Notes: generated by a model from the letters alone, not told the origin. A stretch of DNA of 64,000 nucleotides from Flavobacterium sp. (GCF_049240005.1 NZ_JBMLTK010000028.1:8773-72772), one strand, 5' to 3'. Positions 6,056-27,153 are shown, counted from the first letter of the stretch. Numbers and translations are program-made.

Positions 6056-6276
6056 TAACGTGGGTTCGACCTAAAAATTTTTATTAGATCGCTTGTAATG
6101 AGTACTTTAATTATAAGAAAATAATCTTCAGGCAGGATTTTTTAAAGCTAACCATTTAAACAGTTGCTTACGGCGTTGTATTTTTTTGAGATACCTCGGT
6201 ATCCCAAAGAAAATACGCCTTGTAATCAACTATTTAAATGATTTCTAATTTCGATTTTTATATCGAACTCACGTTA
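6056..6276 (+). mobile_element. MITE-like element, copy A (~221 bp, 14-bp terminal inverted repeats)
   Basis: Left end TAACGTGGGTTCGA and right end TCGAACTCACGTTA (13/14 complementary). The right ~135 bp (6141-6276) is highly similar to 27018-27153. Confidence 0.6.
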
Positions 6277-6310
6277 TTTGCAATCCGCGCGAAAAAATCG
6301 TTTACGGCAG

Positions 6311-6440
6311 GTCGGGCTGTTCACTGCAAGGCGCACCAGCAAACGGCGTTTCAGCCGCGTGTTGGTTCGGCTTCTTGGGTCGCCGCACCGCCACGGGCTT
6401 CAATTGCCGTTTGCTGGCACGGCTTTCCGTTGCCATCCCT
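6311..6440 (+). repeat. GC-rich structured intergenic repeat (family copy G1)
   Basis: Starts gtcgggctgttcactgcaagg and ends ggctttccgttgccatccct. The ends are shared with the copies at 26788-26922 (reverse), 46818-46890 and 58388-58467. Confidence 0.5.
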
Positions 6441-6632
6441 TGTGCGGAAATGCGTGCAAAAGTGATAAAATATTGAATTTCTTGCAGTTTAACTTGACAT
6501 ACGTCTGTGTTAAAGTGATACTCGTACCATGTAGCTGAACGATCGTGCAGGCTTTTTGGGCATAGCAACGTTGCGAATAAGTACTGGTTAAACTTCAAGT
6601 TAAGTTTGAATCACAATACCATTTTAAAAAAA

Positions 6633-7466
6633 TTAAAGATTAGAAACAACCATGTTTTTATTAAACTTACCAAAAGTATTTGGTGTTTGTTTTGGATTAT
6701 ATGATTTAACCTCTTTAAAAACAAAGTCATGCAATTCTTTAATTGTTATTCGTTTATCTAAATTGAGGTCTGCCTTACCTTGCAATCCTTCAATTAAAAA
6801 ATAGCTAAAAACGCCTTGCTTTAATTGATTGTACTCTAAGCTGTATTCATTAGCTCGGGCAGCAACCATAACAGCTACCTCCACATCATTAATTTTTGTT
6901 GAATTTTGATTTAATGAACGTGATTGACTCTTGATATCTTTTGGAGTGTTTTGCTTTAGTGCTCCAGAGTGACAAGCATCGGCGAATATTAATTTTACTT
7001 GGCATTTTGCTGACTTTATAATATCTTTTAAATCAGAAAAATAAAGTAAGTTATAAGCTTTCCCTGTTTCTGGGTTGTATAATCCATCATGGGGAACAAA
7101 CGCTCCTTGTGTTCCATGCCCAGACCAAAAAAAAATTACCCGATCACCTTCTTGTGCACGTTCAAATAACTGCTTGGCATATTTTATAATGTTTGCCTTT
7201 CTTGCAGTTTCATTTTTTAATACATAGATGTTGCCAACTGGAACTTTACCTCCTTTTTCACTCTTGAGAAAACTGACAAATTTCTCAGCATCATTGACTG
7301 TCCATTTTAAATCTTTTGCGGTATTTTCATATTTGTAATCCGCTATGCCAATCACTACAGCGTAGGTGTTTTTTATCACTTTTTCATTATTATCCTGCTT
7401 GCAAGTAAAGGCCAAGAGAGAGAATACAACTAGAAATTTAAAAAATTGACATTGCAGCTTTATCAT
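6633..7466 (-). CDS. caspase-fold peptidase (Peptidase C14 family), predicted lipoprotein
   Basis: YAVVIGIADY, FFWSGHG (catalytic His) and FADACHSG (catalytic Cys). The N-terminal signal has a lipobox-like LLAFTC. Confidence 0.85.
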   Translation of the reverse strand: MIKLQCQFFKFLVVFSLLAFTCKQDNNEKVIKNTYAVVIGIADYKYENTAKDLKWTVNDAEKFVSFLKSEKGGKVPVGNIYVLKNETARKANIIKYAKQLFERAQEGDRVIFFWSGHGTQGAFVPHDGLYNPETGKAYNLLYFSDLKDIIKSAKCQVKLIFADACHSGALKQNTPKDIKSQSRSLNQNSTKINDVEVAVMVAARANEYSLEYNQLKQGVFSYFLIEGLQGKADLNLDKRITIKELHDFVFKEVKSYNPKQTPNTFGKFNKNMVVSNL

Positions 7467-7476
7467 TATGATAGAA

Positions 7477-8388
7477 TTAATGAGTAAAAAAAGTCCTTTT
7501 GAATAAAATATAAATCAGAAATACAAAAGAGATGATGAATAATACTCGCAAACCATTAAAACCAAACTTATCTCTTTTTGTTGACAATAATTCCTTTTCT
7601 TTCGAGGATTTTACTCGATTAAACACCTGCGCTATAGATAGCCATTCAATTTCATAATTATCCCCTTTGTTTATTTCATCATCAACCGCAATTTCGATAA
7701 TTATTGCTGTATTATTATCTTTTGATTCCAATTCACATTGGTTTTGAATTAGTGCAATCTTTTGCTCAACAGACTTTCTTTTGTCTACTAATGTTGTTAT
7801 TAAATCATAATCACTCCAAGCTTCGTTAACGCCATCGGTACAAAGGAAGAAAATATCTCCACTATCTACTTTGTCAATTTTAATAATTTCTGGAGTGGTG
7901 GTCTTGTTTTCTTTGTTAGCTACAATTGCCTTACTAATTCTGTTATTCATGGGGTGATGCCGACCTTCTTCTCTAGTTATTTCACCCGATTTTACTAATT
8001 CACTAACAATAGAATGATCCCAAGTGTGCCAAACTAAATTTTCTTTAGGCTTCAACCAATACAAACGACTATCACCAATATGGGCTATAAACGCATTATT
8101 TTTATTAAAAAACAAACAACAAAAAGTAGTTCCCATTCCAATAGTTTCAGGGTTTTGACCGTACCTTTCATTTAATGCTTTTTGTGCATCAACAAGCAAC
8201 TTTTCAATGTTAAGTTTGGTAATTTCAATTGGATTTTCTAAAATAAAATCCTTTATAAAATTACTAGCAACTTCTCCTTTAGTATGACCACCAACACCAT
8301 CACAAACAATAAAAGTAGTGCTGTTACTACCAAAGGCATCTTCTTGGTTAGCGCGTTTGCCCAGTTGTGAAAAAGAAATTGACTTCAT
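7477..8388 (-). CDS. PP2C-family Ser/Thr protein phosphatase with a C-terminal TM anchor
   Basis: RANQEDAFG, VCDGVGGH, HIGDSRLY, LCTDGV, DNNTAII. C-terminal helix LRVLFIISFVFLIYILF. Confidence 0.9.
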   Translation of the reverse strand: MKSISFSQLGKRANQEDAFGSNSTTFIVCDGVGGHTKGEVASNFIKDFILENPIEITKLNIEKLLVDAQKALNERYGQNPETIGMGTTFCCLFFNKNNAFIAHIGDSRLYWLKPKENLVWHTWDHSIVSELVKSGEITREEGRHHPMNNRISKAIVANKENKTTTPEIIKIDKVDSGDIFFLCTDGVNEAWSDYDLITTLVDKRKSVEQKIALIQNQCELESKDNNTAIIIEIAVDDEINKGDNYEIEWLSIAQVFNRVKSSKEKELLSTKRDKFGFNGLRVLFIISFVFLIYILFKRTFFTH

Positions 8389-8389
8389 T

Positions 8390-9436: not shown

Positions 9437-9448
9437 AACTAGTTAAAA

Positions 9449-11278
9449 TTAATTATGTGGTAAAGTTGGGGAAAATCGATCAACATCTTTTTTTGCAGGT
9501 TCATATCCATTAATATATGCTTTATTATAATATTCATATGCCATAGCATCACTTTGATCTAAATAGTATCCATTTTCATACATTAAACCAATATTATAAA
9601 AGCTTTCTTTGGTATTAGCATCTTTAAAGAATTCATATGCTTTTTGATAATTTTTTTGCTCTAAAAAGCATAATCCAATATAATTTAAGGCATCAAATTG
9701 ATTTTCTGCATTATAAGTTATTGATGAAGCAAATAATTTTTTTGCTTCTTCATAATCTTTTAATTCAAAATAACATACTCCTAAATAGTAATTTAATTCT
9801 CTTGATTTTTCTTGATCTTTTTCTATTGCCAACCTATACCTAATAATTGCTGACTTGTATTCACCCTTGTCAAAATAAGAATTCGCTTCTTTTATAATTG
9901 ATTGTATTGAATTGATTGAGTCATACTTTTTATCAACATAGGATTTTGTTATAGATTCAGGAATGATTTCAACATCATCTGAGGTATTGTCCTTGTATAT
10001 CTTTATGATAGAAGAGAGTAGAATTATAAAAAAAACCGTTCCAAAAATGTACAAAAAAACTTTAAACTCCTCTTTTCTGTAGTATAAAATTTTTGTTTCG
10101 ACCGATTTAATATTAGATTTTTCATCTTTTACACTAACTTTATAAGTACCTGGATTTAAGTTTAGAAAAGTTTTTTCAGTAGTATATTTACCATCATTTA
10201 TTGAATATGTAAAATTTTTGCCTAGTGGGTAAAGAATTTCAATTGAACCTGTTTTCTTTCCTTTTTGAGGATGTGTCGTTTTAACTAAAGGGGTTTCAAT
10301 TTTATTGTATTTAACAGTTTCTTCAACTACAGTTTCTTCATTTTTTATTAAAATTTCTTTTTTTTGTTCATTTTTAAAAATAATATCTAATAACTCATCA
10401 GCAGTTTTAACCCTATAATTAGGATCTCTTACGAGACATTTTTCGGCTATTTTTTGCCATCTTTTCGGGAGTTCTTCAATATTTTCAGAGATTTTTTCAT
10501 TCAAAATTTTATCTCCTATACCTTGTCTTGAAACAGACGTATTATTTTTTGGTGTAGAATTGAATAGTGATTTACCTGTAAAAAGTTCATATATAATAAC
10601 ACCATAAGCCCATAAGTCAGTGTTATAATAAATTTTTGTATCTCCTTTAATTTGTTCGGGAGAACTATATTCTACTGTACCACCTTGTACACTATTTTCA
10701 ATGAAACTTTCAACTTCTTGATTTACAATTTTAGACAAACCAAAATCTGTAATCAATGGTGTAATTAATCTTCTTTTTTCATCATAATGTATAAGTATGT
10801 TTGAAGGTTTTAAATCACGGTGTATTCTATTGTTTTTATGTAGAAACGACAGTCCTTTTAAAATATCTACTGCAATATTTTCTTTATCATCAAAAGATAA
10901 TTCTTTTTGTAATTCTTTTCCTTTTTCGTGTTCTTCTTCATAACTAACACCATTAAGTTTTATTAATTTACTTAAGTTACCATAAGGGTAATATTCCATA
11001 ATGATATAATCGTATTCACCATGATCTGTCTTAATATTTATTACATCTTTATAATAAGCTATATTATCGTTTGGAGATAAATCCTTTATGACTTTGAATT
11101 CTTCTTCTAAGGAATATTTCTTACCATCGATAAATTTTACCTCAGAACGTTTAATAGCATATTGATAGTTATCTCTATCATTGTATTTTGCCTTAAAGAC
11201 AACAGAAAAAGCCCCATTTCCTCTGAAATCTTTTTCAATATCAAATTTGTATAGTTGTCTTAACTGTTCGTAATTCAT
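9449..11278 (-). CDS. membrane Ser/Thr protein kinase with extracytoplasmic TPR/Sel1-like repeats
   Basis: GNGAFSVVFKA..YAIKR, HRDLKPSNIL, DFGLSK, SSPEQ. TM helix FLYIFGTVFFIILLSSIIKIY, then TPR/Sel1-like repeats. Confidence 0.9.
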   Translation of the reverse strand: MNYEQLRQLYKFDIEKDFRGNGAFSVVFKAKYNDRDNYQYAIKRSEVKFIDGKKYSLEEEFKVIKDLSPNDNIAYYKDVINIKTDHGEYDYIIMEYYPYGNLSKLIKLNGVSYEEEHEKGKELQKELSFDDKENIAVDILKGLSFLHKNNRIHRDLKPSNILIHYDEKRRLITPLITDFGLSKIVNQEVESFIENSVQGGTVEYSSPEQIKGDTKIYYNTDLWAYGVIIYELFTGKSLFNSTPKNNTSVSRQGIGDKILNEKISENIEELPKRWQKIAEKCLVRDPNYRVKTADELLDIIFKNEQKKEILIKNEETVVEETVKYNKIETPLVKTTHPQKGKKTGSIEILYPLGKNFTYSINDGKYTTEKTFLNLNPGTYKVSVKDEKSNIKSVETKILYYRKEEFKVFLYIFGTVFFIILLSSIIKIYKDNTSDDVEIIPESITKSYVDKKYDSINSIQSIIKEANSYFDKGEYKSAIIRYRLAIEKDQEKSRELNYYLGVCYFELKDYEEAKKLFASSITYNAENQFDALNYIGLCFLEQKNYQKAYEFFKDANTKESFYNIGLMYENGYYLDQSDAMAYEYYNKAYINGYEPAKKDVDRFSPTLPHN

Positions 11279-11302
11279 GTCATGAATTTAAATTATTATA
11301 AA

Positions 11303-12973
11303 CTATTTTAATTTAACTGTACCTGATTGCTCTTGAAAACCATAAACTTCTTTTGTTTCTTCATTATAGTAATTGTGTTCATTTATTTTGTACGATCCAA
11401 CCATTCCTTTATTTGTAATTTCAACAATCAATTTAAATGGAACTAGAGTTGGGTTTTTAAATCCACTTCCTTTTGTACCCAAATTTATAACGCCATTAAA
11501 TTCAATTTGTTTGTTAGATGATTTAGGTTTTACCTTATAGTTATAGCTATTCAAATCCCAAGTTCCAAATAAATTTTTATTATCCGTATTTCCGGTAATT
11601 CTATATGACCCATCAGTATTTTTAGTTAATTTCATAAAACATTTGGTTGTTTTATTTACAGTAGCGTTATAGATTACTCCTTCAAAATTCCTCGGTAAAT
11701 TTGAGTTTGTTAATCTGTCGAAATTATCACTTAAATTTGAATCATTGTTTAAATTTTTACTGACTTTACGAGATTCTATGGAGTCTAGTTTATTTAAACT
11801 ATCTTTTCTCTGATTGATCACATTTTTACTTTTTTCTTCAAAAAAGTCTCTATTATAAACATCTTTTGACGGCTGCTTCTCTTGTGTTGGTCCTAAATTA
11901 TTTTTACTTTCTATATTATTCCATATGATGAGAGATAACAGAATTACACTTACTAGTAGTAAAACATATTTTAAGAATTTGAAGTCATTTTTTTTTGGGT
12001 TTGTGAATGATTTGTTTTGAACCACATCTAAAATAGTCGATTGATTTTTTTGATGAGTTTCACTTTTATTAATTTCATAACTCCTATCAGGATTTTCAAT
12101 AATCTTTAATAATGTAGTTGTTGATTTTATTCTTTCATTTGGGTCTTTAATGAGGCATAATTTAGCAATATTTCTCCATATTGGTGGGAGTTCATTTAGT
12201 TTATCTGAAATATTTAAATTTACTATTTGGTTAAAAATTTCTACATCATTACTATGACTTCCTGTATGCGATGTTGTATTACTAAATAATTGTTTTCCTG
12301 TAAAAATCTCGTATATAATTACTCCATATGCCCAAAGATCAGAATTGAATCTAATTTCATTATTTTTAAGTTGTTCAGGTGAGCTATATCCCAATGTTCC
12401 ACCACTAAAACTATTGTTTATTAAACTGTTTTTGTTATTCATTGCTTTTTTAGAAAGCCCAAAATCAGTTATTAATGGTATAATGATTCTATCTTTTGCT
12501 TTACCATAAACATGAATAAGAATGTTTGAAGGCTTTAAGTCCCTATGAATAATGTTGTTAGCATGTAAAAAATCTATACCTTTAAGTAGCTGGATAGCAA
12601 TGCTTTCTTTTTCTTGATTGTTCAGTTTTTCACTTTTTATTATGTTATCTAAATTACCATCCTTATAAAACTGTAAGATTGCATAATCAAAAATACCTTG
12701 TTGTGTTTCAAAAGTAAACACATATTCATAGTTGGCTATGTTAGGATGACTCCCTAGATTCTCTAGGGCTTTAAACTCATCTTTTAATGAAAACTCTCTA
12801 CCATCAATTATTTTTACTTCAGAAACCTTTATGGCAACTTCTCGATGTAAAACAGTGTCAAGGGCTTTGTAGACTTTTCCAAAAGCACCATTACCGATTA
12901 AGTCGGTTTTGATGTTGTAATGAAATCGTTTAAAAAAATCGTCGATTGTTTTGATTTGATTGTATTTTGACAT
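11303..12973 (-). CDS. membrane Ser/Thr protein kinase (paralog) with a distinct beta-rich C-terminal domain
   Basis: GNGAFGKVYKA..VAIKV, HRDLKPSNIL, DFGLSK, SSPEQ. TM helix YVLLLVSVILLSLIIW, followed by an uncharacterised C-terminal domain of ~210 aa. Confidence 0.9.
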   Translation of the reverse strand: MSKYNQIKTIDDFFKRFHYNIKTDLIGNGAFGKVYKALDTVLHREVAIKVSEVKIIDGREFSLKDEFKALENLGSHPNIANYEYVFTFETQQGIFDYAILQFYKDGNLDNIIKSEKLNNQEKESIAIQLLKGIDFLHANNIIHRDLKPSNILIHVYGKAKDRIIIPLITDFGLSKKAMNNKNSLINNSFSGGTLGYSSPEQLKNNEIRFNSDLWAYGVIIYEIFTGKQLFSNTTSHTGSHSNDVEIFNQIVNLNISDKLNELPPIWRNIAKLCLIKDPNERIKSTTTLLKIIENPDRSYEINKSETHQKNQSTILDVVQNKSFTNPKKNDFKFLKYVLLLVSVILLSLIIWNNIESKNNLGPTQEKQPSKDVYNRDFFEEKSKNVINQRKDSLNKLDSIESRKVSKNLNNDSNLSDNFDRLTNSNLPRNFEGVIYNATVNKTTKCFMKLTKNTDGSYRITGNTDNKNLFGTWDLNSYNYKVKPKSSNKQIEFNGVINLGTKGSGFKNPTLVPFKLIVEITNKGMVGSYKINEHNYYNEETKEVYGFQEQSGTVKLK

Positions 12974-12984
12974 TTTCTCTCGGA

Positions 12985-13545: not shown

Positions 13546-13566
13546 AATTTTTAGTTTTAAAATGGT

Positions 13567-14283
13567 TTACAGAATTGTTACTTGAATTATCGTTCTACCT
13601 AATCGGATTTTATCATTGTTTTGAAGTACAATTATTTCATTTCTAGACTTGTCTTCAAAGGTCTTTAGCTTTTCTTCATTTATAAAAGTATGGTTTAAAC
13701 TACCATTATCCTGAATTGAAAAAGTATTGTTCTTGTCGTTACGCTTAATAAGAGCATGGGCTCTTGACATCATAGTGTCTTCCGTTTCAATGGCAATATC
13801 GGGTTGGATTGTTGTATTGTTTTTTCTGCCAATTGTCAAGAAAGGTTGTGAAATTTCAAAATGCTGCTCTTTGTTATTTTCAGAAGCTAAAACTAACAAG
13901 GAGAGTTTTTTTTCTGTTTGATTAACACTTCCTACTTTGGTTTTATTGGTTACTGCATTTCCATTTGAAGTATCATTTGCAACAGGTACAGTTAAAAACA
14001 TCATCTTTTTGCAATGAAAACACTTGTTTTTGATGCTTTTACCTTCTGAACCTTCGGTAGTTACGATGGTATTTTCTTTATTGCAAAAAGAACAATTTTC
14101 TTTGAATATTACTTTCTTCATAGTACTTGTTTTTGAATCTTGAATAGTTTTTATCAATCCTATTCGATGGTTACAATTGGAGCAAGTGAATTGCAATGAA
14201 TTCCATTCTTCTTGATTATTAGGTAAATTAGATATCCCGATAGATATGTCACAATTTGGACACTTAAAAAGTTGCTTTTCCAT
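13567..14283 (-). CDS. double zinc-ribbon + FHA domain protein
   Basis: Four CxxC pairs (CPNC, CSNC, CSFC, CFHC). C-terminal FHA signature LTIGRKNN...MSRAHALIKR...IQDNGSLNHTFINEEKL. Confidence 0.8.
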   Translation of the reverse strand: MEKQLFKCPNCDISIGISNLPNNQEEWNSLQFTCSNCNHRIGLIKTIQDSKTSTMKKVIFKENCSFCNKENTIVTTEGSEGKSIKNKCFHCKKMMFLTVPVANDTSNGNAVTNKTKVGSVNQTEKKLSLLVLASENNKEQHFEISQPFLTIGRKNNTTIQPDIAIETEDTMMSRAHALIKRNDKNNTFSIQDNGSLNHTFINEEKLKTFEDKSRNEIIVLQNNDKIRLGRTIIQVTIL

Positions 14284-14288
14284 AATGA

Positions 14289-15269: not shown

Positions 15270-15367
15270 GATTTTGCTATTTATTTTGTTTTACAGTGTA
15301 AAGGTGCAATGGATATGCTTTGAGTTTTAATAAATTGTACGAAATCAATTGTTGGCTGTACAAAACC

Positions 15368-16039: not shown

Positions 16040-16041
16040 GT

Positions 16042-16731: not shown

Positions 16732-16748
16732 GTAAGAATTGTTTTAAA

Positions 16749-17457: not shown

Positions 17458-17916
17458 CTAAACATTCAAATCCAGTTGTCGGTTTTCGGCGGCGGCTTTT
17501 TCGTCTTTTACATGTCCGATTGCAAAGCCTATCGACATACCAAACGGAAATCCTAAACCGAGCAGGCCCATATTGTTGGCCACAGTACCAATAGCAACGC
17601 CAATCGGTATGCCAAAGGCGCTCATGCCAAAAAGTGTAAACAATACGCGGTAATGATTTTTTGGCACCCATTTGAGCTCTTTTTTTACCTGTTGCAAAAT
17701 TTGCGCCTGACTTTTAGCGATGAGTCTTAGTAACTGATTTTCGGGCAATACCGCAGCATTAATGCGTTCGATGTGCTCGTTTACAAAGGCCTCAGTGCTT
17801 TCGGGCATTGCGCGTTTACTGAGCTCGCTGAGTAATTTCTCGAAAACGGCAACCGCTTTTATTGCTTTTACACTTAGGTTTTCGCGGTTTCGGACTTGAA
17901 GAGGTTTCAATGACAT
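17458..17916 (-). CDS. hypothetical membrane protein (core-like GC)
   Basis: 152 aa. Helical N-terminal half and glycine-rich TM region GIPIGVAIGTVANNMGLLGLGFPFGMSIGFAIG. Its GC is visibly higher than both flanks. Confidence 0.6.
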   Translation of the reverse strand: MSLKPLQVRNRENLSVKAIKAVAVFEKLLSELSKRAMPESTEAFVNEHIERINAAVLPENQLLRLIAKSQAQILQQVKKELKWVPKNHYRVLFTLFGMSAFGIPIGVAIGTVANNMGLLGLGFPFGMSIGFAIGHVKDEKAAAENRQLDLNV

Positions 17917-21100: not shown

Positions 21101-21521
21101 GGAATAGGTATAACTTAGCGTGGTTTGAATTTTCGGTTTTACGAATGATTAATCGTTTTTCGTTTAACATTTGTAGAAAGAACTCTACTTGATTGTAGAA
21201 TGCTTCTGTGTCCATTTCTTCATTGTTAATGGCATTTCCCATAGAAGTCATGAATTGATTGAATAGGTCGTCTTGTGACTGTTCCTCTTCTTGGCTACCG
21301 TGTTCTACAATTTTATTTAAGATTTGATCTACTTGAAGTCCAACCAATAATTTTAGTGTTAGGTTTTCGTTCTTTTTTAAGTTTTCAAAAAGTTCTTGCC
21401 AACCTGAAAAGTAAAAGAACCCTACTAAAAATTTAAGCTCATCACTAATGCCGATTAATGTATTTAATCTTCCTTTTAATGATTTATTGGTTTTATTATT
21501 GGTTATGAAATTGTTTGCCAT
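18162..21521 (-). CDS. PLD-family (HKD) nuclease domain fused to an SNF2-family ATPase/helicase
   Basis: NHAKLYLF...GSSNLTRAGL (HKD motif), GLGKS (motif I), VIVDEAHYFRN (motif II), LLTATPFNN (motif III), WNPTRVIQRVGRINRIG (motif VI), then an unassigned C-terminus of ~250 aa. Confidence 0.9.
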   Translation of the reverse strand: MANNFITNNKTNKSLKGRLNTLIGISDELKFLVGFFYFSGWQELFENLKKNENLTLKLLVGLQVDQILNKIVEHGSQEEEQSQDDLFNQFMTSMGNAINNEEMDTEAFYNQVEFFLQMLNEKRLIIRKTENSNHAKLYLFRLNQEQAEIQAMIGQFITGSSNLTRAGLSGQEEFNVEIKDYGFTEAENYFDELWERAIPISEIENRKEFLIQFIQHKSQAASVTPFEAYVLILKTYLDLQQQKQIKPEVENLLEEIGYKKYSYQTDAVNQALSIIEEYNGVIIADVVGLGKSVIASLIAKNLGKRGMVICPPGLMGDKTYNTGWWGYINEFKLYDWEVESRGKLEDLADTIQTKGIKVVIVDEAHYFRNQDSADYESLLTICRDRTVILLTATPFNNSPADIFSLLKLFIVPGKSGITIDDNLEGLFRAFNYKYKRLSDIIKNWNSNKPAKRQKAETLYRTMLAKELPIDVNVVRHETKLLANQIKSIISSVVIRRNRLDLKEDYVYKAEVGDLSTVKDPVELFYHLSHEQNTFYDRILNEYFEENGRFKGAIYQPFSYEKIVDEDQLDEQGNRQFQQQQNLFDFMRRLLVKRFESSFGAFSQSIDRFLQVHILVRDFIEKSNGKYILDRGLIDKIKSYDEDDIDRILSEYSKDLLNKKVPKNNTVYDINDFQRRTEFLEHIESDILVFQEIQSQLKKLKIVENDPKRERIANEIQSILEKDKNRKVILFSEYVDTIKHLEPYFREKFGMRLLVCDGKVSKELAKSLNSDFNAQRKDGQTNHFDILLTSDKLSEGFNLNRAGVIINYDIPWNPTRVIQRVGRINRIGAKVFDELHIYNFFPSEIGADIVKSREIAAQKMYLIHSSLGEDAKIFDEEEEPTASGLYFKLNQNPDESGGINTSTHIRNIYNEIETQYPELIKKISNLPTRVKSAKKTDNYQLNVLRKKGLSLFAQIIEKEEEGYTNIKEVTFDDLLLNTQCEFNEIKLPLSKDFWINYEKIKSFKPNYKIGRSDIALEAKALENLNVYLKILSGSEESLAKFVRMLIKDIKKYHTLSVRTLGRLGRKKIDFHSSEKEVKAFTSEINWIRNHFGDDYLDTILTKINNQKNEVIIAVENHSNT

Positions 21522-21593
21522 TCTTTTAGTTACGTTTATTCACTTATCTATTTTTTAAAATATTGATATGTTTTGTTTTCTTGTGTTAGTCAA

Positions 21594-22046
21594 TTATTGT
21601 TCTTGATTGTTTAAATGAATTGTTTTAGCCTCAATTATTTTCATTTTTAATTCGATGCTAAAATCATCTTCATAAATGAATGAAGTAATTATTTCATGTA
21701 ATAAATCTCTATCTATTATGTTATCAGCAACATCAACAGCAATATATTCTATTTCTCTCATGAATCTACCAACTATGAAATCTAATTGATTGATTTCGAA
21801 AAAGTAAGCTGTTAAAACAACTGATGCTCTTTTGTTTCCATCAGAAAACGCATGATTTTTATTTAAGGCATAAAACAAATAAGCTGCTTTATCTTCTATA
21901 GTTGGATAATACCCATCATGTTGAACAAAATCTAAAACCGCTTCCAAATGTCCTTTGTCTTTTATGCCAAATAAACCACCTGATTTTTCTATTATATAGT
22001 CGTGTTCTTTGATAGCATATTCTATGTCAAAATAATTGAATTTCAT
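21594..22046 (-). CDS. Fic/Doc (death-on-curing) family protein
   Basis: HAFSDGNKRAS matches the Fic core HxFx[DE]GNGR/KR. 150 aa. A 3-nt gap separates it from the upstream RhuM gene. Confidence 0.85.
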   Translation of the reverse strand: MKFNYFDIEYAIKEHDYIIEKSGGLFGIKDKGHLEAVLDFVQHDGYYPTIEDKAAYLFYALNKNHAFSDGNKRASVVLTAYFFEINQLDFIVGRFMREIEYIAVDVADNIIDRDLLHEIITSFIYEDDFSIELKMKIIEAKTIHLNNQEQ

Positions 22047-22049
22047 ACC

Positions 22050-23051
22050 CTATCTGTCTTTTAATCTTTTGAATACATCTATGTTTTCATCAATTCTTTC
22101 TTCAAGAGTTTTGCTTTTTTCACCTAAGAACCTATCAAAGTCTGTCTTTGAAACACTATCTATATATTGTTCAAGATTTTCATGCAAAACTTGCCTGAAA
22201 CCATAATCTCTTGTAGCCATTTTTGTTCTTGCATCGTTGATTAATGGTGTAAATAATGGATGTTCTGCAAAGTTTTCAAGAAGATTATCCATTTCTGCCT
22301 TAGCCAATTTTCTATTATACTTTAACGACAATGATTTCATTTCGTGTGCTAAACCATTTTCAAAAGAAGCTATTAATTTTAAAACTTCAGCATACATGGT
22401 GTCTCTTACGTTTTCATTTGCTTCTAATTTTAAAACTCTTTTATACTCGTCTGCTTTTTCTTTAAAAACACATTGATAAATTTTATCTGTGTAGTATGAG
22501 TATTTGAAAGGACCTAAGTCTAAATATTCTTTTAAGGCATTTGTAAATTCTTTACGATAATGAGGTTCTTTTAATATTGTATTAAAAAAGTCTTCATCGC
22601 GTTGGTTGATGTATTTTGTAGAACCTCCTGTTTTTTGGTTTAAACTATCAATTACAATATCAAGCATTTTGCTTCTTAAAGCTTTTGCCATATCGCTCTC
22701 TACTAAAAGCATTCCGATGTTTAAAAACGATCTAAAATTAAACACGCCTAACTGTGGAGTTCTGCTAGACAAGTTTAGAATATGACCAAATTCTTCTTTG
22801 AATTCTTTTAATGATTTACCCTTTAATACATTATAACCGTTATGCTTTAGCTCTTTTTCATTATTTTCTAAGTAACGTTCTATTGTTACAACATCTATTT
22901 GATAAAATTCAGCAATTTGCTGTTTTGTGAATACATATTGTTCTTTAAAATACATACCCGGTATACCTACATAGTCTTGTAATTGCATTATGACTATATA
23001 GTTATTTAGAATGTTTTGACGGTCAATATTTGAAACGGTTAAATCTTTCAT
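22050..23051 (-). CDS. RhuM-family protein
   Basis: N-terminus FTKQQIAEFYQIDVVTIERYLENNEKEL and the overall length fit RhuM proteins seen in R-M loci. I chose the start MKDLTV (ATG 23051) over the tracked 23135. Confidence 0.75.
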   Translation of the reverse strand: MKDLTVSNIDRQNILNNYIVIMQLQDYVGIPGMYFKEQYVFTKQQIAEFYQIDVVTIERYLENNEKELKHNGYNVLKGKSLKEFKEEFGHILNLSSRTPQLGVFNFRSFLNIGMLLVESDMAKALRSKMLDIVIDSLNQKTGGSTKYINQRDEDFFNTILKEPHYRKEFTNALKEYLDLGPFKYSYYTDKIYQCVFKEKADEYKRVLKLEANENVRDTMYAEVLKLIASFENGLAHEMKSLSLKYNRKLAKAEMDNLLENFAEHPLFTPLINDARTKMATRDYGFRQVLHENLEQYIDSVSKTDFDRFLGEKSKTLEERIDENIDVFKRLKDR

Positions 23052-23290
23052 TTTCTGACTTTTTTGTTTTATTTTACAAGCACCTGCTACAAAACTGAGT
23101 TCTACTCTTTCACTACTTTTGTTACAACACAACAATTTTATTACTAAAAATTATTTAAAAAAACAATTATTGTTGATAACTTTTTTATGTTCTCCTCATT
23201 CATGAGGGAAACATATTGTGTTATTGTTGAAAAACCCTTATTTTACTGGTCTTTTGGTTTAGATTATTTTTAGTGATTTTATTCACAATT

Positions 23291-26200
23291 TTAATAAACA
23301 TAGCTGTTATACTCCTGCTCGCTTAACCCAAACTCTGGATCTACCACCAAAACTTCAGCATAACTAAGCTCATAAAGTTTGTAAACCATAAGGTCGATTT
23401 GGTTTTCTAATTCTGTAGTGTCGAGGTTTTGTTTTTTATTTTCTATTATTTTATTAACTTTATCTACTATTAACTTTTGGATATTTGATTCAACAATTTT
23501 TATCGGTAATTTTCTTAAAAATGTCAACTTGACTTGAGCAAAAACTTTACCACTCTCTGTTATTAAAAGCTTATAAAGAAAGTTACCAAATTTTGAATTT
23601 AAAATTGATAGGATATACTTCAATTCAAAATTTTTATCGTTCTTTATGATGGAATGAACTGAGTCAATACAATAAAATTCATCTTCTATAAATGTTGCAA
23701 TTAAATCAGCAGATGTTTGTCTCAGAAAAATTTTCGGTTCTCTAAAAAACTTATCATCTCTTTTACACCATAACCATTCTCCATATTCAATAAAATTTTC
23801 TTTCCATTTATCTTCGTATCTATGAAAATCTTTTCCTCTCATTACTGGTTTTGAATACTTTGAAATGATTGAATCATTAAAATAATTTTTCTTTTCACCT
23901 TGAACCTTAGCATAAACTGTAATTCCCTGAGTGCTATGTGTTATTGTCCCAAGATTTACAGTATTCGCAGAGTATTTTTTTAAAATTTTGTAATTATCTA
24001 TTGTTTCGAAATCAAACGAAGTTGAATCATAATCATCTTGCAAAAGTTCTGATTTTTTTAACAAATTTAAGCTGTTATTTTGTATTAAATATTTTGTGAA
24101 TTTTGTTTTAAATGATTTATTACTTTTTGATTTAATTAAAAAAGTTAGTGAACTATCCACAATAGCTGTTTCGAAAACATTCTCAATTCTTTCAGTTACT
24201 TCAATTATATTTGTTTTACTTCTAATATAATTCCTTAATTCTTGAAATTGAGTATAAACAGTAAAAGTATGTGGTGTTATGTATGAAAGGATGCCTTTGT
24301 GATTTAAATAATCTATTCCGATTTTAAAAAAGAAAATATATAAATCATAATGTTTTGATAAAACGTCTTTAAATAACTTTTGAAAAAACTCTTTATCTTT
24401 TTTATTTGAAACTTCTACATAAGGCGGATTCCCAATTACCACATCAAATTTTTCTACGCCAAACATCCAATCAGGGTCAAACCAGGCAGAGCTTTCGTTA
24501 CTAAAGGGTTTCCATGCAGCTAATTGTTGTGCGCGCTTGTTTTGTCCGCCGGATTTGAGTTCGTTTTTATAGATTTCTTGTTGCAGTTTTTCGAAGTCGG
24601 ATTTTAGTGTTCGCTTTTCAGTTGGCGAAGCTTGTAAATAGGCGTTTCTTATTTTTTGCAATTGCGTTTGCAATTGAGCCGTTTCACCAAAATCAAACTC
24701 AACAGCTTTTTCTTTGTTTTCTTGTTCTAATCCAATCAATGTGTTTGCCGTAACAAACTTAAATTCCAAATTAGGCAACGGAATAATACCTCTGTTCTCG
24801 GCAGTATCATTAATATTTTCGTCTATGATTAAAGAAAGAAAACTCCTTAGTTTAGAGATTTCTGCAGCAACGGGTTGAATATCTACACCGTAAATAGAGT
24901 GTTGGATTACGCCCAATTTTCTGGCATAATCACTTGTAGCCGACGATAACTTTTCTTCCATTATTTTACGCATAATGGCATTGTCAATTTTCTCTAATTG
25001 CTTCGCTTTCCACCAAACCGCACCTTTATCTAATTTTTTAAGTAATGCAATTATCTTGTGTAAAACTCCCATAGGGAAAGCTCCCGAGCCACAAGCTGGA
25101 TCCAGGATTTTTACATCGCTCAAAGCTTCGAGAATTGCGATGGTTTGTTTGCTGTCGAAAGGATTTTCGGTATCGTCTTTTAGTAGAATCTCTAGTTTTT
25201 CTTCTTCGTCGATATTGGTTTTGGTTTTGATGTATTGCAATAGTGATTGTTCCACCATATAATCGACAATCTCACGAGGTGTATAAAAGCTTCCTGTAGA
25301 TTTACGGGCACTTTTCTCGGTATCTGGGTCTATTTCTGCCAAAAGATTTTCGAAGATAGTTCCCAACATTTCGGGGTCTATACTTACCTCAAAATCGTTT
25401 GAACTATTTTCATCAATTGTAAAATTGTATTGTTCTAAAACTTCAAAAAAATCTTTAAACCATTGATTAGGAATATGTAGTGCAAAATTGGCTTGATGAA
25501 TTCCTTCACTGTCTTTTGGGAAAAAATCATCCGCTTGCGCTTCAAAAAGTCCGCCATTTAAGAACGGAACTAGCTCATGGTTGTTAGGTAACTGATAAGG
25601 TTTTCTTTCATCGCCCTTTTTTTTATTCAAGATCAAAAAGAACAATTTTTCAAGAATTGAATGATAGTAATCATGCCTTTCGTTATCTACACTGGCTACC
25701 ATTTTTGACGAAAGCCATTCTTCGGGGATCAACGGAAGACCATTGTCTGACTTCTTATTTTTCAGAAACCAGCAAAAAATGGTTCTGCCGATAAGTCGTA
25801 CACCAAACTCTTGGTATTCTTTTCTATAATCATTTATTGGCTTGGTAGGCAATTGTAAGCAAGGGTTAAAAGACACTTCTTTCTTATTGATGCTTACTTT
25901 ACCACCTATAAGGCTATAAAAAGCGGTTGCAATTTCTTCGTAGAATTTTTTATTTAGTTTTTCAACACTAAATGCTTCTTGTATTTCTTCTAGCGAGCTA
26001 AAATTACATCCGTTAATTCTGTTTTTGAATGTTTTGTTGGTTCTTGCTGGGTCAACAAAGTAAGTGTAACGTTTCCAGCTAGAAAATTTTTGATTTTTGT
26101 TGCCGTAATTTCTGCGAATGAACGAAAAGCGGAAACAGCCATTTTCGTCATAAAATATAAAAATGGCACCATCTTTAAAATCTGCTGAAAGTACTTTTTT

Positions 26201-26455
26201 GGCAATGTCGAACTGGATTTTCTTTGAGGAGCGTTCAGATAGTATTCCTTGATATTTACAAGTAAAAACAAGTAAATCAGACGCATCGCTAAAGGTAGCT
26301 TCACCTATTTTTATTAATTCTGAAAATCGTTGAAAATCGTTTTCAGTCAATATGTAGTTTAGGTCTTCGGAAATCTTTCGGAACGATGAAATTTTATCAA
26401 AAAAGAAATCGCCTACCAACTGAACAGAGAAATTTTGAATGAAAGGTATCGTCAC
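23291..26455 (-). CDS. large gamma-class N6-adenine DNA methyltransferase with a C-terminal specificity region (Eco57I/Type IIG-like architecture)
   Basis: ILDPACGSGAFPMG (motif I) precedes VVIGNPPYVE (motif IV). A TRD-like C-terminus of ~350 aa follows. I could not assign the ~300-aa N-terminal region to a nuclease. Confidence 0.9.
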   Translation of the reverse strand: MTIPFIQNFSVQLVGDFFFDKISSFRKISEDLNYILTENDFQRFSELIKIGEATFSDASDLLVFTCKYQGILSERSSKKIQFDIAKKVLSADFKDGAIFIFYDENGCFRFSFIRRNYGNKNQKFSSWKRYTYFVDPARTNKTFKNRINGCNFSSLEEIQEAFSVEKLNKKFYEEIATAFYSLIGGKVSINKKEVSFNPCLQLPTKPINDYRKEYQEFGVRLIGRTIFCWFLKNKKSDNGLPLIPEEWLSSKMVASVDNERHDYYHSILEKLFFLILNKKKGDERKPYQLPNNHELVPFLNGGLFEAQADDFFPKDSEGIHQANFALHIPNQWFKDFFEVLEQYNFTIDENSSNDFEVSIDPEMLGTIFENLLAEIDPDTEKSARKSTGSFYTPREIVDYMVEQSLLQYIKTKTNIDEEEKLEILLKDDTENPFDSKQTIAILEALSDVKILDPACGSGAFPMGVLHKIIALLKKLDKGAVWWKAKQLEKIDNAIMRKIMEEKLSSATSDYARKLGVIQHSIYGVDIQPVAAEISKLRSFLSLIIDENINDTAENRGIIPLPNLEFKFVTANTLIGLEQENKEKAVEFDFGETAQLQTQLQKIRNAYLQASPTEKRTLKSDFEKLQQEIYKNELKSGGQNKRAQQLAAWKPFSNESSAWFDPDWMFGVEKFDVVIGNPPYVEVSNKKDKEFFQKLFKDVLSKHYDLYIFFFKIGIDYLNHKGILSYITPHTFTVYTQFQELRNYIRSKTNIIEVTERIENVFETAIVDSSLTFLIKSKSNKSFKTKFTKYLIQNNSLNLLKKSELLQDDYDSTSFDFETIDNYKILKKYSANTVNLGTITHSTQGITVYAKVQGEKKNYFNDSIISKYSKPVMRGKDFHRYEDKWKENFIEYGEWLWCKRDDKFFREPKIFLRQTSADLIATFIEDEFYCIDSVHSIIKNDKNFELKYILSILNSKFGNFLYKLLITESGKVFAQVKLTFLRKLPIKIVESNIQKLIVDKVNKIIENKKQNLDTTELENQIDLMVYKLYELSYAEVLVVDPEFGLSEQEYNSYVY

Positions 26456-26787
26456 GTCTTGGTTGTTTAAACGTTATAATAAAATGATTCGAATATAAGA
26501 CAATCTCAATAGAAATATTGTTGAAAAGTTTATTGAAACAACTACGTATTACTCATCGCACGATATATCACAGTTTTAAATTTAAAGGGCTCTAAATAGC
26601 GTTGTACTAATTGTAAATATTTTGATTACACAACGTGCTTTTTGTTGGTGTCTGTTCGATAGAAAAATTGGTTTACTGGCGTTCGATAAAAAAAGTGAGA
26701 TTACACCTTTAAGATGACCACTGAGGCGCAGCTTTACACGAAATGCACCTGAGTTAGTGCACTAGTTTTTACGGTAACGACTTTCCC

Positions 26788-26922
26788 GGCCCCGATTGCA
26801 GTGGAAATAACGCTGCAGCGGTGGCGTGTGCGGGCGTTTTTAGCGCGGCGACTGGCAGAAGCCCCGCAGAAAACTGCCCAAACCGCCGCCGCAAAAGCGG
26901 TATTGCAATGAAAAGCGGGAAT
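26788..26922 (-). repeat. GC-rich structured intergenic repeat (family copy G2, inverted relative to G1)
   Basis: ccccgattgcagtggaaata ... attgcaatgaaaagcggga. Its reverse complement shares its ends with the copies at 6311-6440 and 46818-46890. Confidence 0.5.
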
Positions 26923-26933
26923 AGCCGCATAAA

Positions 26934-27153
26934 TAACGTGAGTTTGATATAAAGATCTACGTTCGAACGCTTAAATTGAGTCGTTTAAATAGTTCACGGG
27001 AATTTTTGCTGAGCTATTTTGAAAGCTAATCATTTAAACAGTCGCTTACTGCCTTGTATTTTTTTGAGGTACCTCGGTATACCAGGAAAATACGCCTTGT
27101 AATCAACCGTTTAAATGATTTCTAACTTTAATTTTTACATCGAACTCACGTTA
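26934..27153 (+). mobile_element. MITE-like element, copy B (~220 bp)
   Basis: Left end TAACGTGAGTTTGA and right end TCGAACTCACGTTA (13/14 complementary). Same orientation as copy A. The right ~135 bp is near-identical to 6141-6276. Confidence 0.6.

What the first reader, a model, noticed from the sequence alone, without database searches (positions are those of the whole stretch)
6056..27153. A ~20.7 kb AT-rich island bracketed by two same-orientation MITE-like copies, with no integrase
Element A (6056-6276) and element B (26934-27153) have TAACGTG(G/A)GTT(C/T)GA ... TCGAACTCACGTTA termini and share a ~135-bp near-identical right half. Immediately inside each element lies one copy of the GC-rich repeat family, and these two copies are in inverted orientation to each other (6311-6440 and 26788-26922). 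Everything between is strongly AT-rich apart from one short gene, whereas hemN and the cco cluster outside have core-like GC. I found no integrase, transposase or tRNA. The direct repeats could mediate RecA-dependent loss or exchange of the whole island. Alternatively they may mark a recombination hotspot where defence cargo is swapped.
Basis: seen in the sequence. Interest (0 to 1): 0.65.

Follow-up and report, generated by a model that had tools for sequence, protein, structure and literature searches.

The report
Integrase-less defence hotspot between hemN and cco
An AT-rich, 20-kb block of two phage-defence-like gene modules sits in a strain-variable slot between two conserved genes of a freshwater Flavobacterium; the two small transposon-like repeats beside it are real, but other alleles show they are bystanders and not the ends of the island.

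Summary
Elements A (6056-6276) and B (26934-27153) belong to a dispersed 220-bp family with terminal inverted repeats. It has 24 exact-core hits in four Flavobacterium-type assemblies and one insertion that differs between strains. The DNA between them is about 30% GC, against 42% outside. No integrase, transposase or tRNA was found.

I compared the window with four other alleles of the same hemN/cco junction.
- The variable DNA starts at the inner edges of the two GC-rich repeats, not at the MITEs. These repeats are long-stem relatives of the Rfam Flavo-1 motif.
- The island is two separate insertions on either side of a resident gene, ORF152.
  - Module 1 (6462-17457) is a conserved 10-gene LytTR/FHA/Ser-Thr-kinase/PP2C/caspase cassette.
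  - Module 2 (17956-26765) is a methyltransferase/ORF6N-Fic/HKD-SNF2 restriction-like operon. Elsewhere it rides on integrase-bearing islands.
- A close relative has an empty allele: Flavo-1-like repeat, ORF152, Flavo-1-like repeat, MITE A.
- MITE A is in every allele that reaches its position. MITE B is missing from two alleles.

The best reading is a core-gene-flanked defence hotspot whose cargo is exchanged by homologous recombination. The MITEs insert next to Flavo-1-like repeats but do not move the island.

The parts
4655..6004 (+). hemN-type radical-SAM gene; conserved left flank of the hotspot
   Evidence: Pfam Radical_SAM. The exact protein is found in Logan contig L025. It is 93% aa identical to the D8_MAG copy and 71% to the L092/L014 copy. 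It is convergent with the cco cluster in distant Flavobacteriia too.
6056..6276 (+). MITE copy A (221 bp; TIR TAACGTGGGTTCGA / TCGAACTCACGTTA; long internal hairpin)
   Evidence: The DNA fold is -39.2 kcal/mol, z = -7. Orthologous copies are 96% identical in L024, L014/L092 and L097.
6306..6453 (-). Flavo-1-like long-stem repeat 'palA'; left edge of the variable DNA (homology to other alleles ends at about 6458-6461)
   Evidence: Rfam RF01705 at 23.7 bits, covering model positions 1-76. Alignment of three alleles breaks right after it. A regex for the conserved Flavo-1 end motifs also finds it.
6633..7466 (-). Module 1: caspase-like Peptidase_C14
   Evidence: Pfam E=2.9e-23. PADLOC 'caspase'. 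NCBIfam caspase_w_EACC1, below its cut-off.
7477..8388 (-). Module 1: PP2C Ser/Thr phosphatase with a C-terminal TM segment
8390..9436 (-). Module 1: Sel1-repeat protein
9449..11278 (-). Module 1: Ser/Thr kinase, one TM segment, TPR domain
11303..12973 (-). Module 1: second Ser/Thr kinase with one TM segment
12985..13545 (-). Module 1: 186-aa putative lipoprotein of unknown family
   Evidence: No family found. Signal or lipobox-like N-terminus. Position conserved in L099-L102.
13567..14283 (-). Module 1: zinc-ribbon plus FHA protein
14289..15269 (-). Module 1: 326-aa TM protein with an acidic C-terminal tail; marker of the cassette
   Evidence: No family found. Homologues at 38-77% identity are always inside the same cassette.
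15368..16039 (-). Module 1: FHA protein with a TM segment
16042..16731 (-). Module 1: LytTR DNA-binding protein, the first gene of the cassette
17458..17916 (-). ORF152: resident small membrane-protein gene with core-like GC, kept in every allele that covers its position; it separates the two insertion slots
   Evidence: 44.8% GC. Homologues are in L097 (94% aa), L092 (70%) and L024/L094 (63-66%), all at the same junction.
18162..21521 (-). Module 2: HKD (PLD, NgoFVII-type) nuclease fused to an SNF2 helicase
   Evidence: Pfam PLDc_2, RE_NgoFVII, SNF2-rel_dom, Helicase_C. PADLOC 'HKD+Snf2' and DrmD. More than 5000 homologues.
21594..22046 (-). Module 2: Fic/DOC protein (PADLOC candidate PDC-M59B)
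22050..23135 (-). Module 2: ORF6N-domain protein (PADLOC candidate PDC-M59A, E=1.9e-116)
23291..26455 (-). Module 2: Eco57I/MmeI-like N6-adenine methyltransferase with a TaqI_C specificity domain (type IIG / PglX-like)
   Evidence: The TRD segment 23606-24399 has no nucleotide similarity to the otherwise 77-93% identical L103 copy.
26784..26926 (+). Flavo-1-like long-stem repeat 'palB'; right edge of the variable DNA (homology to other alleles resumes at about 26766-26772)
   Evidence: Rfam RF01705 at 32.1 bits, E=6e-5 locally. 93.8% identical to L092, 84% to L094 and 100% to L097 over 45 nt.
26934..27153 (+). MITE copy B (220 bp), a lineage-specific insertion of a different subfamily
   Evidence: Absent from L092 and L094-L096, where DsbD_2 is 41-44 bp from palB. 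Present in L026 and L027.
27188..27886 (-). DsbD_2-family gene at the end of the cbb3 oxidase (cco/fixH) cluster; conserved right flank
   Evidence: Pfam DsbD_2. Contexts in L026, L092 and L094.

Best explanation
The junction between the convergent hemN gene and the cbb3-oxidase (cco-fixH-DsbD_2) operon is a core-gene-flanked hotspot for accessory DNA in a freshwater Flavobacterium clade.

**Ancestral layout.** The layout is DsbD_2, Flavo-1-like repeat (palB), ORF152, Flavo-1-like repeat (palA), hemN. The 5' ends of both repeats face inward.

**Two slots.** One slot lies on each side of ORF152, and each accepts cargo.
- In the window, slot 1 holds an 11.0-kb, 10-gene membrane-signalling cassette: LytTR, two FHA proteins, two Ser/Thr kinases, Sel1, PP2C and a caspase-like protease.
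- Slot 2 holds an 8.8-kb restriction-like operon: an MmeI/Eco57I-like methyltransferase and an HKD-SNF2 nuclease-helicase, with an ORF6N/Fic pair between them.
- Both modules are about 30% GC, are foreign, and also occur in other genomes at other sites.

**How cargo turns over (inferred).** Cargo is gained, lost and swapped by homologous recombination of incoming DNA. The anchors are the conserved sequence on either side of each slot: ORF152, the Flavo-1-like repeats, MITE A and the core genes. This leaves no integrase, att site or target duplication.

**The MITEs.** The two 220-bp elements belong to a mobile MITE family that tends to land 14-59 bp beyond the 3' end of Flavo-1-like repeats. 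MITE A is an old insertion. MITE B is a recent, lineage-specific one. Neither defines or mobilises the island.

**Shown versus inferred.** The alleles, breakpoints, composition, domain content and MITE family are shown. The recombination mechanism and the defence function of the cargo are inferred.
For: **Empty allele.** L097 comes from a close relative (ORF152 93.6% nt identical). It reads palB, 68 bp, ORF152, 97 bp, palA, MITE A. Its spacers are shared with the distant L092, so the empty state is ancestral.

**Other alleles.**
- L092 carries an extra Flavo-1-like copy and a DUF4328 gene in slot 1, with slot 2 empty.
- D8_MAG (L024) carries ORF181 in slot 1.
- L094-L096 carry a 595-bp ORF125 segment in slot 2 that L024 lacks.

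**Breakpoints.** They coincide with the Flavo-1-like edges, with the ORF152 stop codon, and with a point about 40-60 bp upstream of the ORF152 start codon.

**No site-specific signatures.** There are no direct repeats at the module junctions and no integrase, transposase or tRNA.

**Ancient synteny.** hemN and DsbD_2 are convergent neighbours 0.6-6.7 kb apart in marine Flavobacteriia.

**Recombination signatures.**
- Identity between the window and D8_MAG falls from 97-99% to 86-88% in the hemN 3' half next to the hotspot.
- The two flanks give discordant relationships. On the left, the window is 95% identical to D8 while L092 is 74%. On the right, the D8-like allele is 89% identical to L092 while the window is 74%.

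**Cargo is mobile and defence-like.**
- Module 1 recurs as the same gene order in L099-L102 at other loci, once beside WYL, GmrSD and AAA defence genes.
- Module 2 is 92.6% identical over 5.5 kb to an operon on integrase-bearing islands.
- PADLOC, Pfam and NCBIfam hits support the domain assignments.

**MITE behaviour.** There are 24 core hits in four assemblies. L027 has a polymorphic insertion. MITEs lie next to Flavo-1-like repeats at several independent loci.

**Precedent.** Core defence hotspots in which 29-47% of sites have no mobility gene, with homologous recombination through conserved flanks proposed, are described in PMC10250203.
Against: - Recombination was not observed directly.
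- All comparison alleles come from MAGs or short metagenomic contigs. Some are only 0.9-11 kb, and no complete genome of the clade was available.
- Linking L024 and L094 as one 'D8-like' lineage rests on 95-98% identity over about 620 bp.
- The spacers (68 and 97 bp) were replaced rather than cleanly interrupted. That fits allelic replacement, but it also fits illegitimate insertion followed by deletion.
- How each module first entered the slots is unknown.
- Module 2 rides on an integrase element elsewhere, so a decayed integrative element cannot be fully excluded for that half.
- Defence activity of either module is untested. Module 1 could be a non-defence signalling cassette.
- The high conservation of MITE A and the Flavo-1-like repeats (91-96%, against 74% in coding flanks) could reflect functional constraint instead of recombination.
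Confidence: 0.62

Rival explanations
1. One reading: the two same-orientation MITE copies are the functional ends of one 20.7-kb island. RecA-dependent recombination between them deletes or exchanges the whole block, as with a composite element.
For: The copies are in direct orientation and share 138 bp at 89% identity. The family is mobile. Short-read assemblies break at both copies.
Against: - The variable DNA begins 180-185 bp inside each MITE, at the Flavo-1-like edges.
- MITE A is present in the empty allele and in both other alleles that reach its position. MITE B is absent from L092 and L094-L096.
- A and B are different subfamily members, and their longest exact match is 22 bp.
- The island is two insertions around a retained gene.
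- No single-MITE deletion allele was seen.
Confidence: 0.07
2. One or both modules arrived by site-specific integration of an integrase-bearing island. The mobility genes and att sites were later deleted, leaving only cargo.
For: Module 2 lies on islands with a tyrosine integrase, HTH_17 and a VapE-like primase in L103-L105, at 92.6% nt identity. In L100/L101, module 1 is flanked by 67-bp direct repeats.
Against: - tBLASTn finds no remnant of those integrase, VapE or HTH genes in the window.
- Homology to L103 stops within 25 bp of the operon's last stop codon, and inside the methyltransferase gene at the other end.
- There are no direct repeats at either module's junctions, and the L100 repeat is absent from the window.
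- There is no tRNA target.
Confidence: 0.15
3. The Flavo-1-like repeats are themselves recombination sites, in the manner of attC or REP/BIME sequences. A trans-acting recombinase would use them to insert or excise cassettes, so the hotspot would be a structured cassette array.
For: - The variable DNA abuts the 5' edge of both repeats in every allele.
- In L092 the DUF4328 gene is flanked by two direct Flavo-1-like copies, as expected after a single-site cassette insertion.
- The repeats are imperfect hairpins with conserved ends and co-varying stems: 21 of 26 pairs show compensatory changes.
- Published transcriptomics found Flavo-1 hits in sense, in antisense and outside transcribed regions, which hints at a DNA-level role (PMC9723704).
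Against: - No recombinase is linked to them.
- I did not see the attC R''/R' core motifs when I inspected the sequence.
- The window's modules are not separated by such repeats.
- The inner borders of both slots are ORF152, not a repeat.
- Only one locus was examined.
Confidence: 0.12
4. The AT-rich block is old resident DNA of this lineage, not an acquired island.
For: All genes are co-oriented with intact reading frames, and there are no mobility genes.
Against: - A relative with 94% aa-identical ORF152 has an empty allele.
- GC is 12 points below the flanks.
- The same modules occur at unrelated loci elsewhere.
Confidence: 0.02

Closest known systems
Core defence hotspots (cDHS1/2) of Pseudomonas aeruginosa (PMC10250203)
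   Same: The boundaries are conserved core genes. Size and content differ widely between isolates. GC is lower than the genome. A large fraction of sites has no detectable mobility gene. Transfer by homologous recombination through the conserved flanks has been proposed.
   Different: - The phylum and the flanking genes differ (hemN / cbb3 oxidase).
- No tRNA or tmRNA gene lies at the border.
- The site is split into two slots by a resident gene.
- The borders coincide with Flavo-1-like structured repeats.
- Only five alleles were seen here, against more than 1600 there.
Defence-island integration hotspots of E. coli (PMC10121019)
   Same: The hotspots are mapped by flanking core genes, and empty alleles exist.
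   Different: According, those hotspots typically hold one MGE type. Here there is no integrase or MGE backbone.
Bacterial MITEs of the TA-target (IS630/Tc1-mariner-derived) kind, such as Neisseria Correia elements or pneumococcal RUP (from my own knowledge)
   Same: The element is about 220 bp and non-coding, with 14-22-bp terminal inverted repeats and a long internal hairpin. It is multi-copy, intergenic and polymorphic between strains. The filled and empty sites in L027 versus the window fit a TA duplication.
   Different: I saw no sequence relationship. No autonomous partner with the same termini was found. The duplication length is ambiguous (2-5 bp). This family also shows a marked preference for the 3' side of Flavo-1-like repeats.
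Flavo-1 RNA motif (Rfam RF01705; PMC2864571)
   Same: The GC-rich repeats carry both conserved Flavo-1 end blocks and the enclosing helix, and they match the whole model, positions 1-76. A canonical copy lies at 46812-46895.
   Different: The central hairpin is about 91 nt instead of about 24 nt. Scores of 23.7 and 32.1 bits are below the gathering score of 42.
Integron cassette arrays and attC sites (from my own knowledge)
   Same: Imperfect palindromes with conserved ends and variable stems border co-oriented genes. In L092 one gene is flanked by two direct copies.
   Different: There is no IntI. I recognised no R''/R' core sites. The multi-gene modules are not separated by repeats.
DISARM class 1 and type IIG / BREX PglX methyltransferase systems
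   Same: Module 2 combines an Eco57I/PglX-like N6-adenine methyltransferase with SNF2 (DrmD-like) and PLD (DrmC-like) domains.
   Different: No DrmA or DrmB, and no BREX core genes, are present. PLD and SNF2 are fused in one protein. All equivalog models score far below their cut-offs.

Membership tests
MITE (miniature inverted-repeat transposable element) | Short, non-coding element with terminal inverted repeats | tested here: met
   The element is 220-221 bp with TAACGTG(G/A)GTT(C/T)GA / TCGAACTCACGTTA termini. Its ends are consistent in 20 full-length copies. I inspected it and saw no meaningful ORF.
MITE (miniature inverted-repeat transposable element) | Many dispersed copies in a genome | tested here: met
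   Exact 22-mer hits number 7, 8, 3 and 6 in four assemblies, each at a different locus. Further diverged copies lie nearby. These counts are lower bounds.
MITE (miniature inverted-repeat transposable element) | Presence/absence polymorphism at orthologous sites (mobility) | tested here: met
   L027 has a copy between ccoG and fixH that the 96-97% identical window lacks. MITE B is absent in L092 and L094.
MITE (miniature inverted-repeat transposable element) | Target-site duplication of fixed length | tested here: inconclusive
   The filled and empty sites in L027 allow a duplication of 2-5 bp and fit TA. Old copies show no consistent duplication.
MITE (miniature inverted-repeat transposable element) | Autonomous IS with matching termini that supplies the transposase | tested here: not met
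   The only extra termini in the fetched loci belong to further short copies. There is no transposase in the window. Whole genomes could not be scanned, so a partner may exist elsewhere.
Island bracketed and mobilised by flanking direct repeats (composite-type element) | Both repeats delimit the variable DNA, and empty alleles keep one copy | tested here: not met
   Breakpoints lie inside the MITEs, at the Flavo-1-like edges. The empty allele keeps palB, ORF152, palA and MITE A. MITE B is absent from two other alleles.
Core-gene-flanked defence hotspot | Conserved core genes on both sides across strains and species | tested here: met
   hemN and the cco/DsbD_2 genes flank the site in the window and in L092. 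Partial alleles L024, L094 and L097 fit the same layout, as do distant Flavobacteriia.
Core-gene-flanked defence hotspot | Content differs between related genomes, including empty sites | tested here: met
   Five distinct alleles were seen, with 0.66 to 20.3 kb between the Flavo-1-like repeats.
Core-gene-flanked defence hotspot | Cargo consists of anti-phage defence systems | tested here: inconclusive
   Module 2 has RM-type domains and the PADLOC candidate pair PDC-M59A/B. Module 1 has only generic kinase and caspase hits, plus one co-location with defence genes. No functional test was possible.
Flavo-1 RNA (RF01705) | Score at or above the Rfam gathering threshold (42 bits) | tested here: not met
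   palB scores 32.1 bits and palA 23.7 bits. The canonical copy at 46812-46895 scores 78 bits.
Flavo-1 RNA (RF01705) | Both conserved end blocks enclosing a hairpin | tested here: met
   The cmscan alignment covers model positions 1-76, with a 91-nt insertion in place of 24 nt. Twenty long copies match an end-block regex. Stem covariation is present.
Integrative island (integrase + att + tRNA-type target) | Integrase or recombinase gene, and direct att repeats at the ends | tested here: not met
Integron / attC cassette array | IntI integrase and attC sites with R''/R' core motifs between cassettes | tested here: not met
   There is no integrase. I saw no RYYYAAC...GTTRRRY pairs in the repeats when I inspected. 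No attC covariance model was available.
DISARM | Core genes drmA and drmB (DUF1998) alongside the methylase | tested here: not met
   Only DrmD-, DrmC- and DrmMI-like domains are present. NCBIfam DISARM_DrmD scores 130 bits against a cut-off of 610.
Type IIG restriction-modification enzyme | Nuclease, methyltransferase and TRD in one polypeptide | tested here: inconclusive
   The methyltransferase and TaqI_C TRD are clear. A weak MmeI helicase-spacer hit is present (20 bits, below the cut-off). No nuclease domain was detected in residues 1-220.

The most novel reading that the evidence does not exclude
Long-stem Flavo-1-like repeats are DNA-level landmarks that organise accessory-gene slots in Flavobacterium. 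They would mark, and perhaps catalyse or insulate, the borders where cargo is exchanged. They would also serve as homing sites for a MITE family. This would give a first function to the orphan Flavo-1 motif and define a repeat-guided, integrase-independent hotspot architecture.
Probability: 0.13. Interest if true: 0.7.

Novelty: new member of a known kind. Interest (0 to 1): 0.42.

Why it matters
- It adds a well-delimited example, in Bacteroidota, of a defence hotspot that turns over without any integrase. Base-level breakpoints and an empty allele are in hand.
- It shows that conspicuous flanking repeats can mislead. The MITEs look like island ends but are bystanders.
- It yields three leads that can be followed up:
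  1. A 10-gene LytTR/FHA/kinase/PP2C/caspase cassette that moves as a unit and sits among defence genes.
  2. A widespread methyltransferase + HKD-SNF2 pair with a variable middle gene.
  3. A link between Flavo-1-like repeats, MITE insertion and cargo borders.

Tried and rejected
- **Exact-protein look-up of the 464-aa hemN ORF.** It found nothing. The shorter start at 4655 worked.
- **Reading 8-kb DNA-search loci as contig ends.** I first made this mistake. One search showed they are fixed chunks, and I corrected it.
- **Metagenome scan with DsbD_2.** It returned only relatives of 40% identity or less. These were useful for ancient synteny only.
- **Short-read contigs L025-L027.** They break at the MITEs, so they do not span the junction.
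- **Direct repeats or target duplications at the module junctions.** None was found.
- **The 67-bp repeat flanking the cassette in L100.** It is absent from the window.
- **Remnants of the integrase, VapE, HTH and RT genes of the L103 island.** None is present in the window.
- **The MITE in phage, plasmid and IMG/VR collections.** No match.
- **Rfam match for the MITE.** Only spurious miRNA-hairpin hits.
- **Promoter and terminator scans around the repeats.** Nothing above the shuffle expectation.
- **nhmmer iteration on the GC-rich repeats.** It recovered only close copies. A regex on the Flavo-1 end blocks worked better.
- **Literature search for the 10-gene cassette.** No description was found.
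- **Reading the repeats as attC sites.** Rejected for lack of core motifs and an integrase.

Full report

Yes. Elements A (6056-6276) and B (26934-27153) carry the reported termini. The 14-nt terminus occurs five times in the window at up to 2 mismatches, against 0.47 expected.

The right 138 bp of the two elements are 89% identical. The left 83 bp are 62% identical, the whole elements 79%, and the longest exact run is 22 bp. Both fold into long hairpins; A gives -39.2 kcal/mol with z = -7.

The DNA between them is AT-rich. Module 1 is 30.4% GC and module 2 is 30.7%, against 42.3% and 41.7% in the flanks. The short gene at 17458-17916 is core-like at 44.8%.

All island genes lie on the minus strand. 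No tRNA gene was found. No integrase or transposase domain was found either. A canonical Flavo-1 RNA at 46812-46895 places the window in Flavobacteriaceae.

**2. The 220-bp element is a true MITE-like family.**

A 22-nt core shared by A and B occurs 24 times in public species-representative genomes:
- 7 hits in Flavobacterium sp. D8_MAG_00001.
- 8 hits in C8_MAG_00051.
- 3 hits in F. aurantiibacter TH167.
- 6 hits in a MAG labelled Pseudanabaena. Its contigs have Flavobacterium gene order, so I take this as bin contamination.

BLAST shows full-length copies with the same ends at unrelated loci. Twenty full-length copies have a median pairwise identity of 83%.

A and B belong to different subfamilies. 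The best non-orthologous match of B is L003 at 95%. A matches only its own orthologues at 96%, and other copies at 86% or less.

The family has moved recently. Contig L027 is 96-97% identical to the window but has an extra copy between ccoG and fixH that the window lacks. This filled/empty pair fits a TA duplication, although anything from 2 to 5 bp is possible.

No autonomous partner was found. The element has no match in the phage, plasmid or IMG/VR collections.

**3. The GC-rich repeats are Flavo-1-like.**

The repeats just inside the MITEs match Rfam Flavo-1 (RF01705) over the whole model. The central hairpin is about 91 nt instead of 24 nt. As a result the scores fall below the 42-bit threshold: palB (26784-26926, +) scores 32.1 bits and palA (6306-6453, -) scores 23.7 bits.

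A regex on the conserved end blocks finds 20 such long copies (128-133 nt) in 347 kb of Flavobacterium sequence. An alignment of ten copies gives a hairpin in which 21 of 26 pairs show compensatory changes.

At several independent loci a MITE lies 14-59 bp beyond the 3' end of such a repeat: window A, window B, L009 and L020/L022. That sample was chosen for containing MITEs, so it is biased.

Published transcriptomics could not assign Flavo-1 a function. Hits were found in sense, in antisense and outside transcribed regions (PMC9723704).

**4. What related genomes have at this junction.**

| Allele | Source | Layout between the core genes |
|---|---|---|
| L097 | Logan SRR29134433; ORF152 93.6% nt and 94% aa identical to the window | palB, 68 bp, ORF152, 97 bp, palA, MITE A. 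Neither module is present: an empty allele |
| L092 | GCA_943371725.1; flanks about 74% identical | DsbD_2, palB (no MITE B), ORF152, extra Flavo-1-like copy, DUF4328 gene, palA, MITE A, hemN. Only 2.7 kb between the core genes |
| L024 | D8_MAG; left flank 94.8% identical | hemN, MITE A, palA, ORF181, ORF153, palB |
| L094-L096 | D8-like | DsbD_2, palB (no MITE B), 595-bp ORF125 segment absent from L024, ORF153 |

L098 is 100% identical to window 10658-19083, so the window's allele exists in an independent sample.

In distant marine Flavobacteriia, hemN and DsbD_2 are still convergent neighbours, 0.6-6.7 kb apart.

**5. Breakpoints.**

Homology between alleles ends at about 6458-6461 and resumes at about 26766-26772. 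These points are the inner (5') edges of the two Flavo-1-like repeats.

Inside the island, homology covers only ORF152 plus about 40-60 bp upstream of it. It stops at the ORF152 stop codon.

The 20.3-kb block is therefore two insertions:
- Module 1 (6462-17457) replaces a 97-bp spacer.
- Module 2 (17956-26765) replaces a 68-bp spacer.

L097 and the distant L092 share both spacers, so the empty state is ancestral. No direct repeats or target duplications flank either module.

**6. The cargo.**

*Module 1* encodes ten proteins in this order: LytTR, FHA-TM, a 326-aa TM protein with an acidic tail, zinc-ribbon-FHA, a 186-aa putative lipoprotein, two single-pass Ser/Thr kinases (one with a TPR domain), Sel1, PP2C-TM and a caspase-like protease.
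- The same gene order recurs at other loci in other Bacteroidota (L099-L102).
- One occurrence is beside WYL, RNase_T, GmrSD and AAA genes.
- It is AT-rich everywhere, at 28-30% GC.
- I found no published description of it.

*Module 2* encodes four proteins:
- An Eco57I/MmeI-like N6-adenine methyltransferase with a TaqI_C specificity domain.
- An ORF6N/Fic pair, matching PADLOC candidates PDC-M59A/B.
- An HKD(NgoFVII-type)-SNF2 protein.

The operon is 92.6% identical over 5.5 kb to one carried on islands with a tyrosine integrase, HTH_17 and a VapE-like primase (L103-L105). The specificity-domain segment 23606-24399 is replaced. In L106 the methyltransferase and the HKD-SNF2 gene bracket a Schlafen/AlbA_2 gene instead. 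None of the mobility genes of the L103 island is present in the window.

**7. Signs of recombination.**

Identity between the window and D8_MAG is 97-99% across most of the left flank. It falls to 86-88% in the 3' half of hemN, next to the hotspot.

The two flanks give discordant relationships:
- On the left, the window groups with D8 (95%) and L092 is distant (74%).
- On the right, the D8-like allele groups with L092 (89%) and the window is distant (74%).

The non-coding repeats are much better conserved than the neighbouring genes. MITE A is 96% identical, palA 85-91% and palB 94%, against 74-76% for hemN, cco and ORF152. Recent exchange of these segments or functional constraint could each explain this. 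I could not decide between them.

**8. Interpretation.**

The best-supported model is a core-gene-flanked defence hotspot of the kind described in P. aeruginosa, where 29-47% of sites carry no mobility gene and homologous recombination through conserved flanks was proposed (PMC10250203). Here the site has two slots around a resident gene, and its borders coincide with Flavo-1-like repeats.

The MITEs are bystanders that home next to those repeats. MITE A predates the cargo differences, and MITE B is a later, lineage-specific insertion.

The main idea, that the direct MITE repeats bracket and mobilise the island, is not.

The recombination mechanism and the defence function of the cargo remain inferences. 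All comparison alleles come from MAGs or short contigs.

**9. Novelty.**

This is a new member of a known kind. The 10-gene cassette, the methyltransferase/HKD-SNF2 pair with a variable middle gene, and the link between Flavo-1-like repeats, MITEs and cargo borders are the parts that deserve follow-up.

Noticed in passing
There is one canonical 76-nt copy and several long-stem variants (about 130 nt) that score below the Rfam threshold. The stems co-vary between copies.
   Followed up: partly
window 6056-6461 and 26766-26933, compared with L092, L024 and L097: MITE A, both Flavo-1-like repeats and the 97-bp ORF152 3' spacer are 85-98% identical between lineages whose adjacent coding DNA is only 70-77% identical. 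The cause is unexplained: recent exchange or strong constraint.
   Followed up: partly
L027 358-581 versus window about 28340-28347: A polymorphic MITE insertion lies between ccoG and fixH in a strain 96-97% identical to the window. This shows recent mobility and gives a filled/empty site pair that fits a TA duplication.
   Followed up: yes
window 23606-24399 versus L103: The specificity-domain part of the methyltransferase gene shares no nucleotide similarity with an otherwise 77-93% identical operon. This looks like a TRD swap, and so a different recognition sequence.
   Followed up: partly
L103-L105; L106: The module 2 operon rides on integrase/HTH_17/VapE-type islands, next to a reverse-transcriptase gene and two large unknown genes. 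In L106 the methyltransferase and HKD-SNF2 genes enclose a Schlafen/AlbA_2-HATPase gene instead of ORF6N/Fic. This suggests a two-gene core with a variable middle.
   Followed up: partly
L099-L102; L100 1-67 and 11254-11320: The 10-gene LytTR/FHA/kinase/PP2C/caspase cassette keeps its gene order at unrelated loci. In L100/L101 it is flanked by 67-bp direct repeats (87% identical) that are absent from the window.
   Followed up: partly
L092 10557-10745 and 11924-12100: Two direct Flavo-1-like copies flank a single DUF4328 gene, a cassette-like arrangement.
   Followed up: partly
L025 about 1170-1413 (about 0.9-1.1 kb left of window position 1); L092 15716-15851: Another MITE copy, or a remnant of one, lies between two DUF2805 genes just outside the window.
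   Followed up: no
window 60573-60700 and 60914-61041: A 128-nt direct repeat (94% identical) lies 341 bp apart. Each copy contains the palindrome GTTTAAACGTTTATAAACGTTTA.
   Followed up: no
window 54813-57430 (inside ORF 54555-57755): Repeats spaced at about 285 or 570 bp encode a repeated AA(C/T)TGGGG...TT(C/T)CC motif in a 1066-aa protein.
   Followed up: no
L003, L014, L017, L019, L021, L022, L092 (GCA_943371725.1): A MAG labelled Pseudanabaena sp. UWO311 carries contigs with Flavobacterium gene order (fused ccoNO, hemN synteny) and the same MITE. The bin is probably contaminated.
   Followed up: partly
L020 1262-1655: A tandem duplication of a MITE left-end fragment plus a Flavo-1-like repeat.
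   Followed up: no
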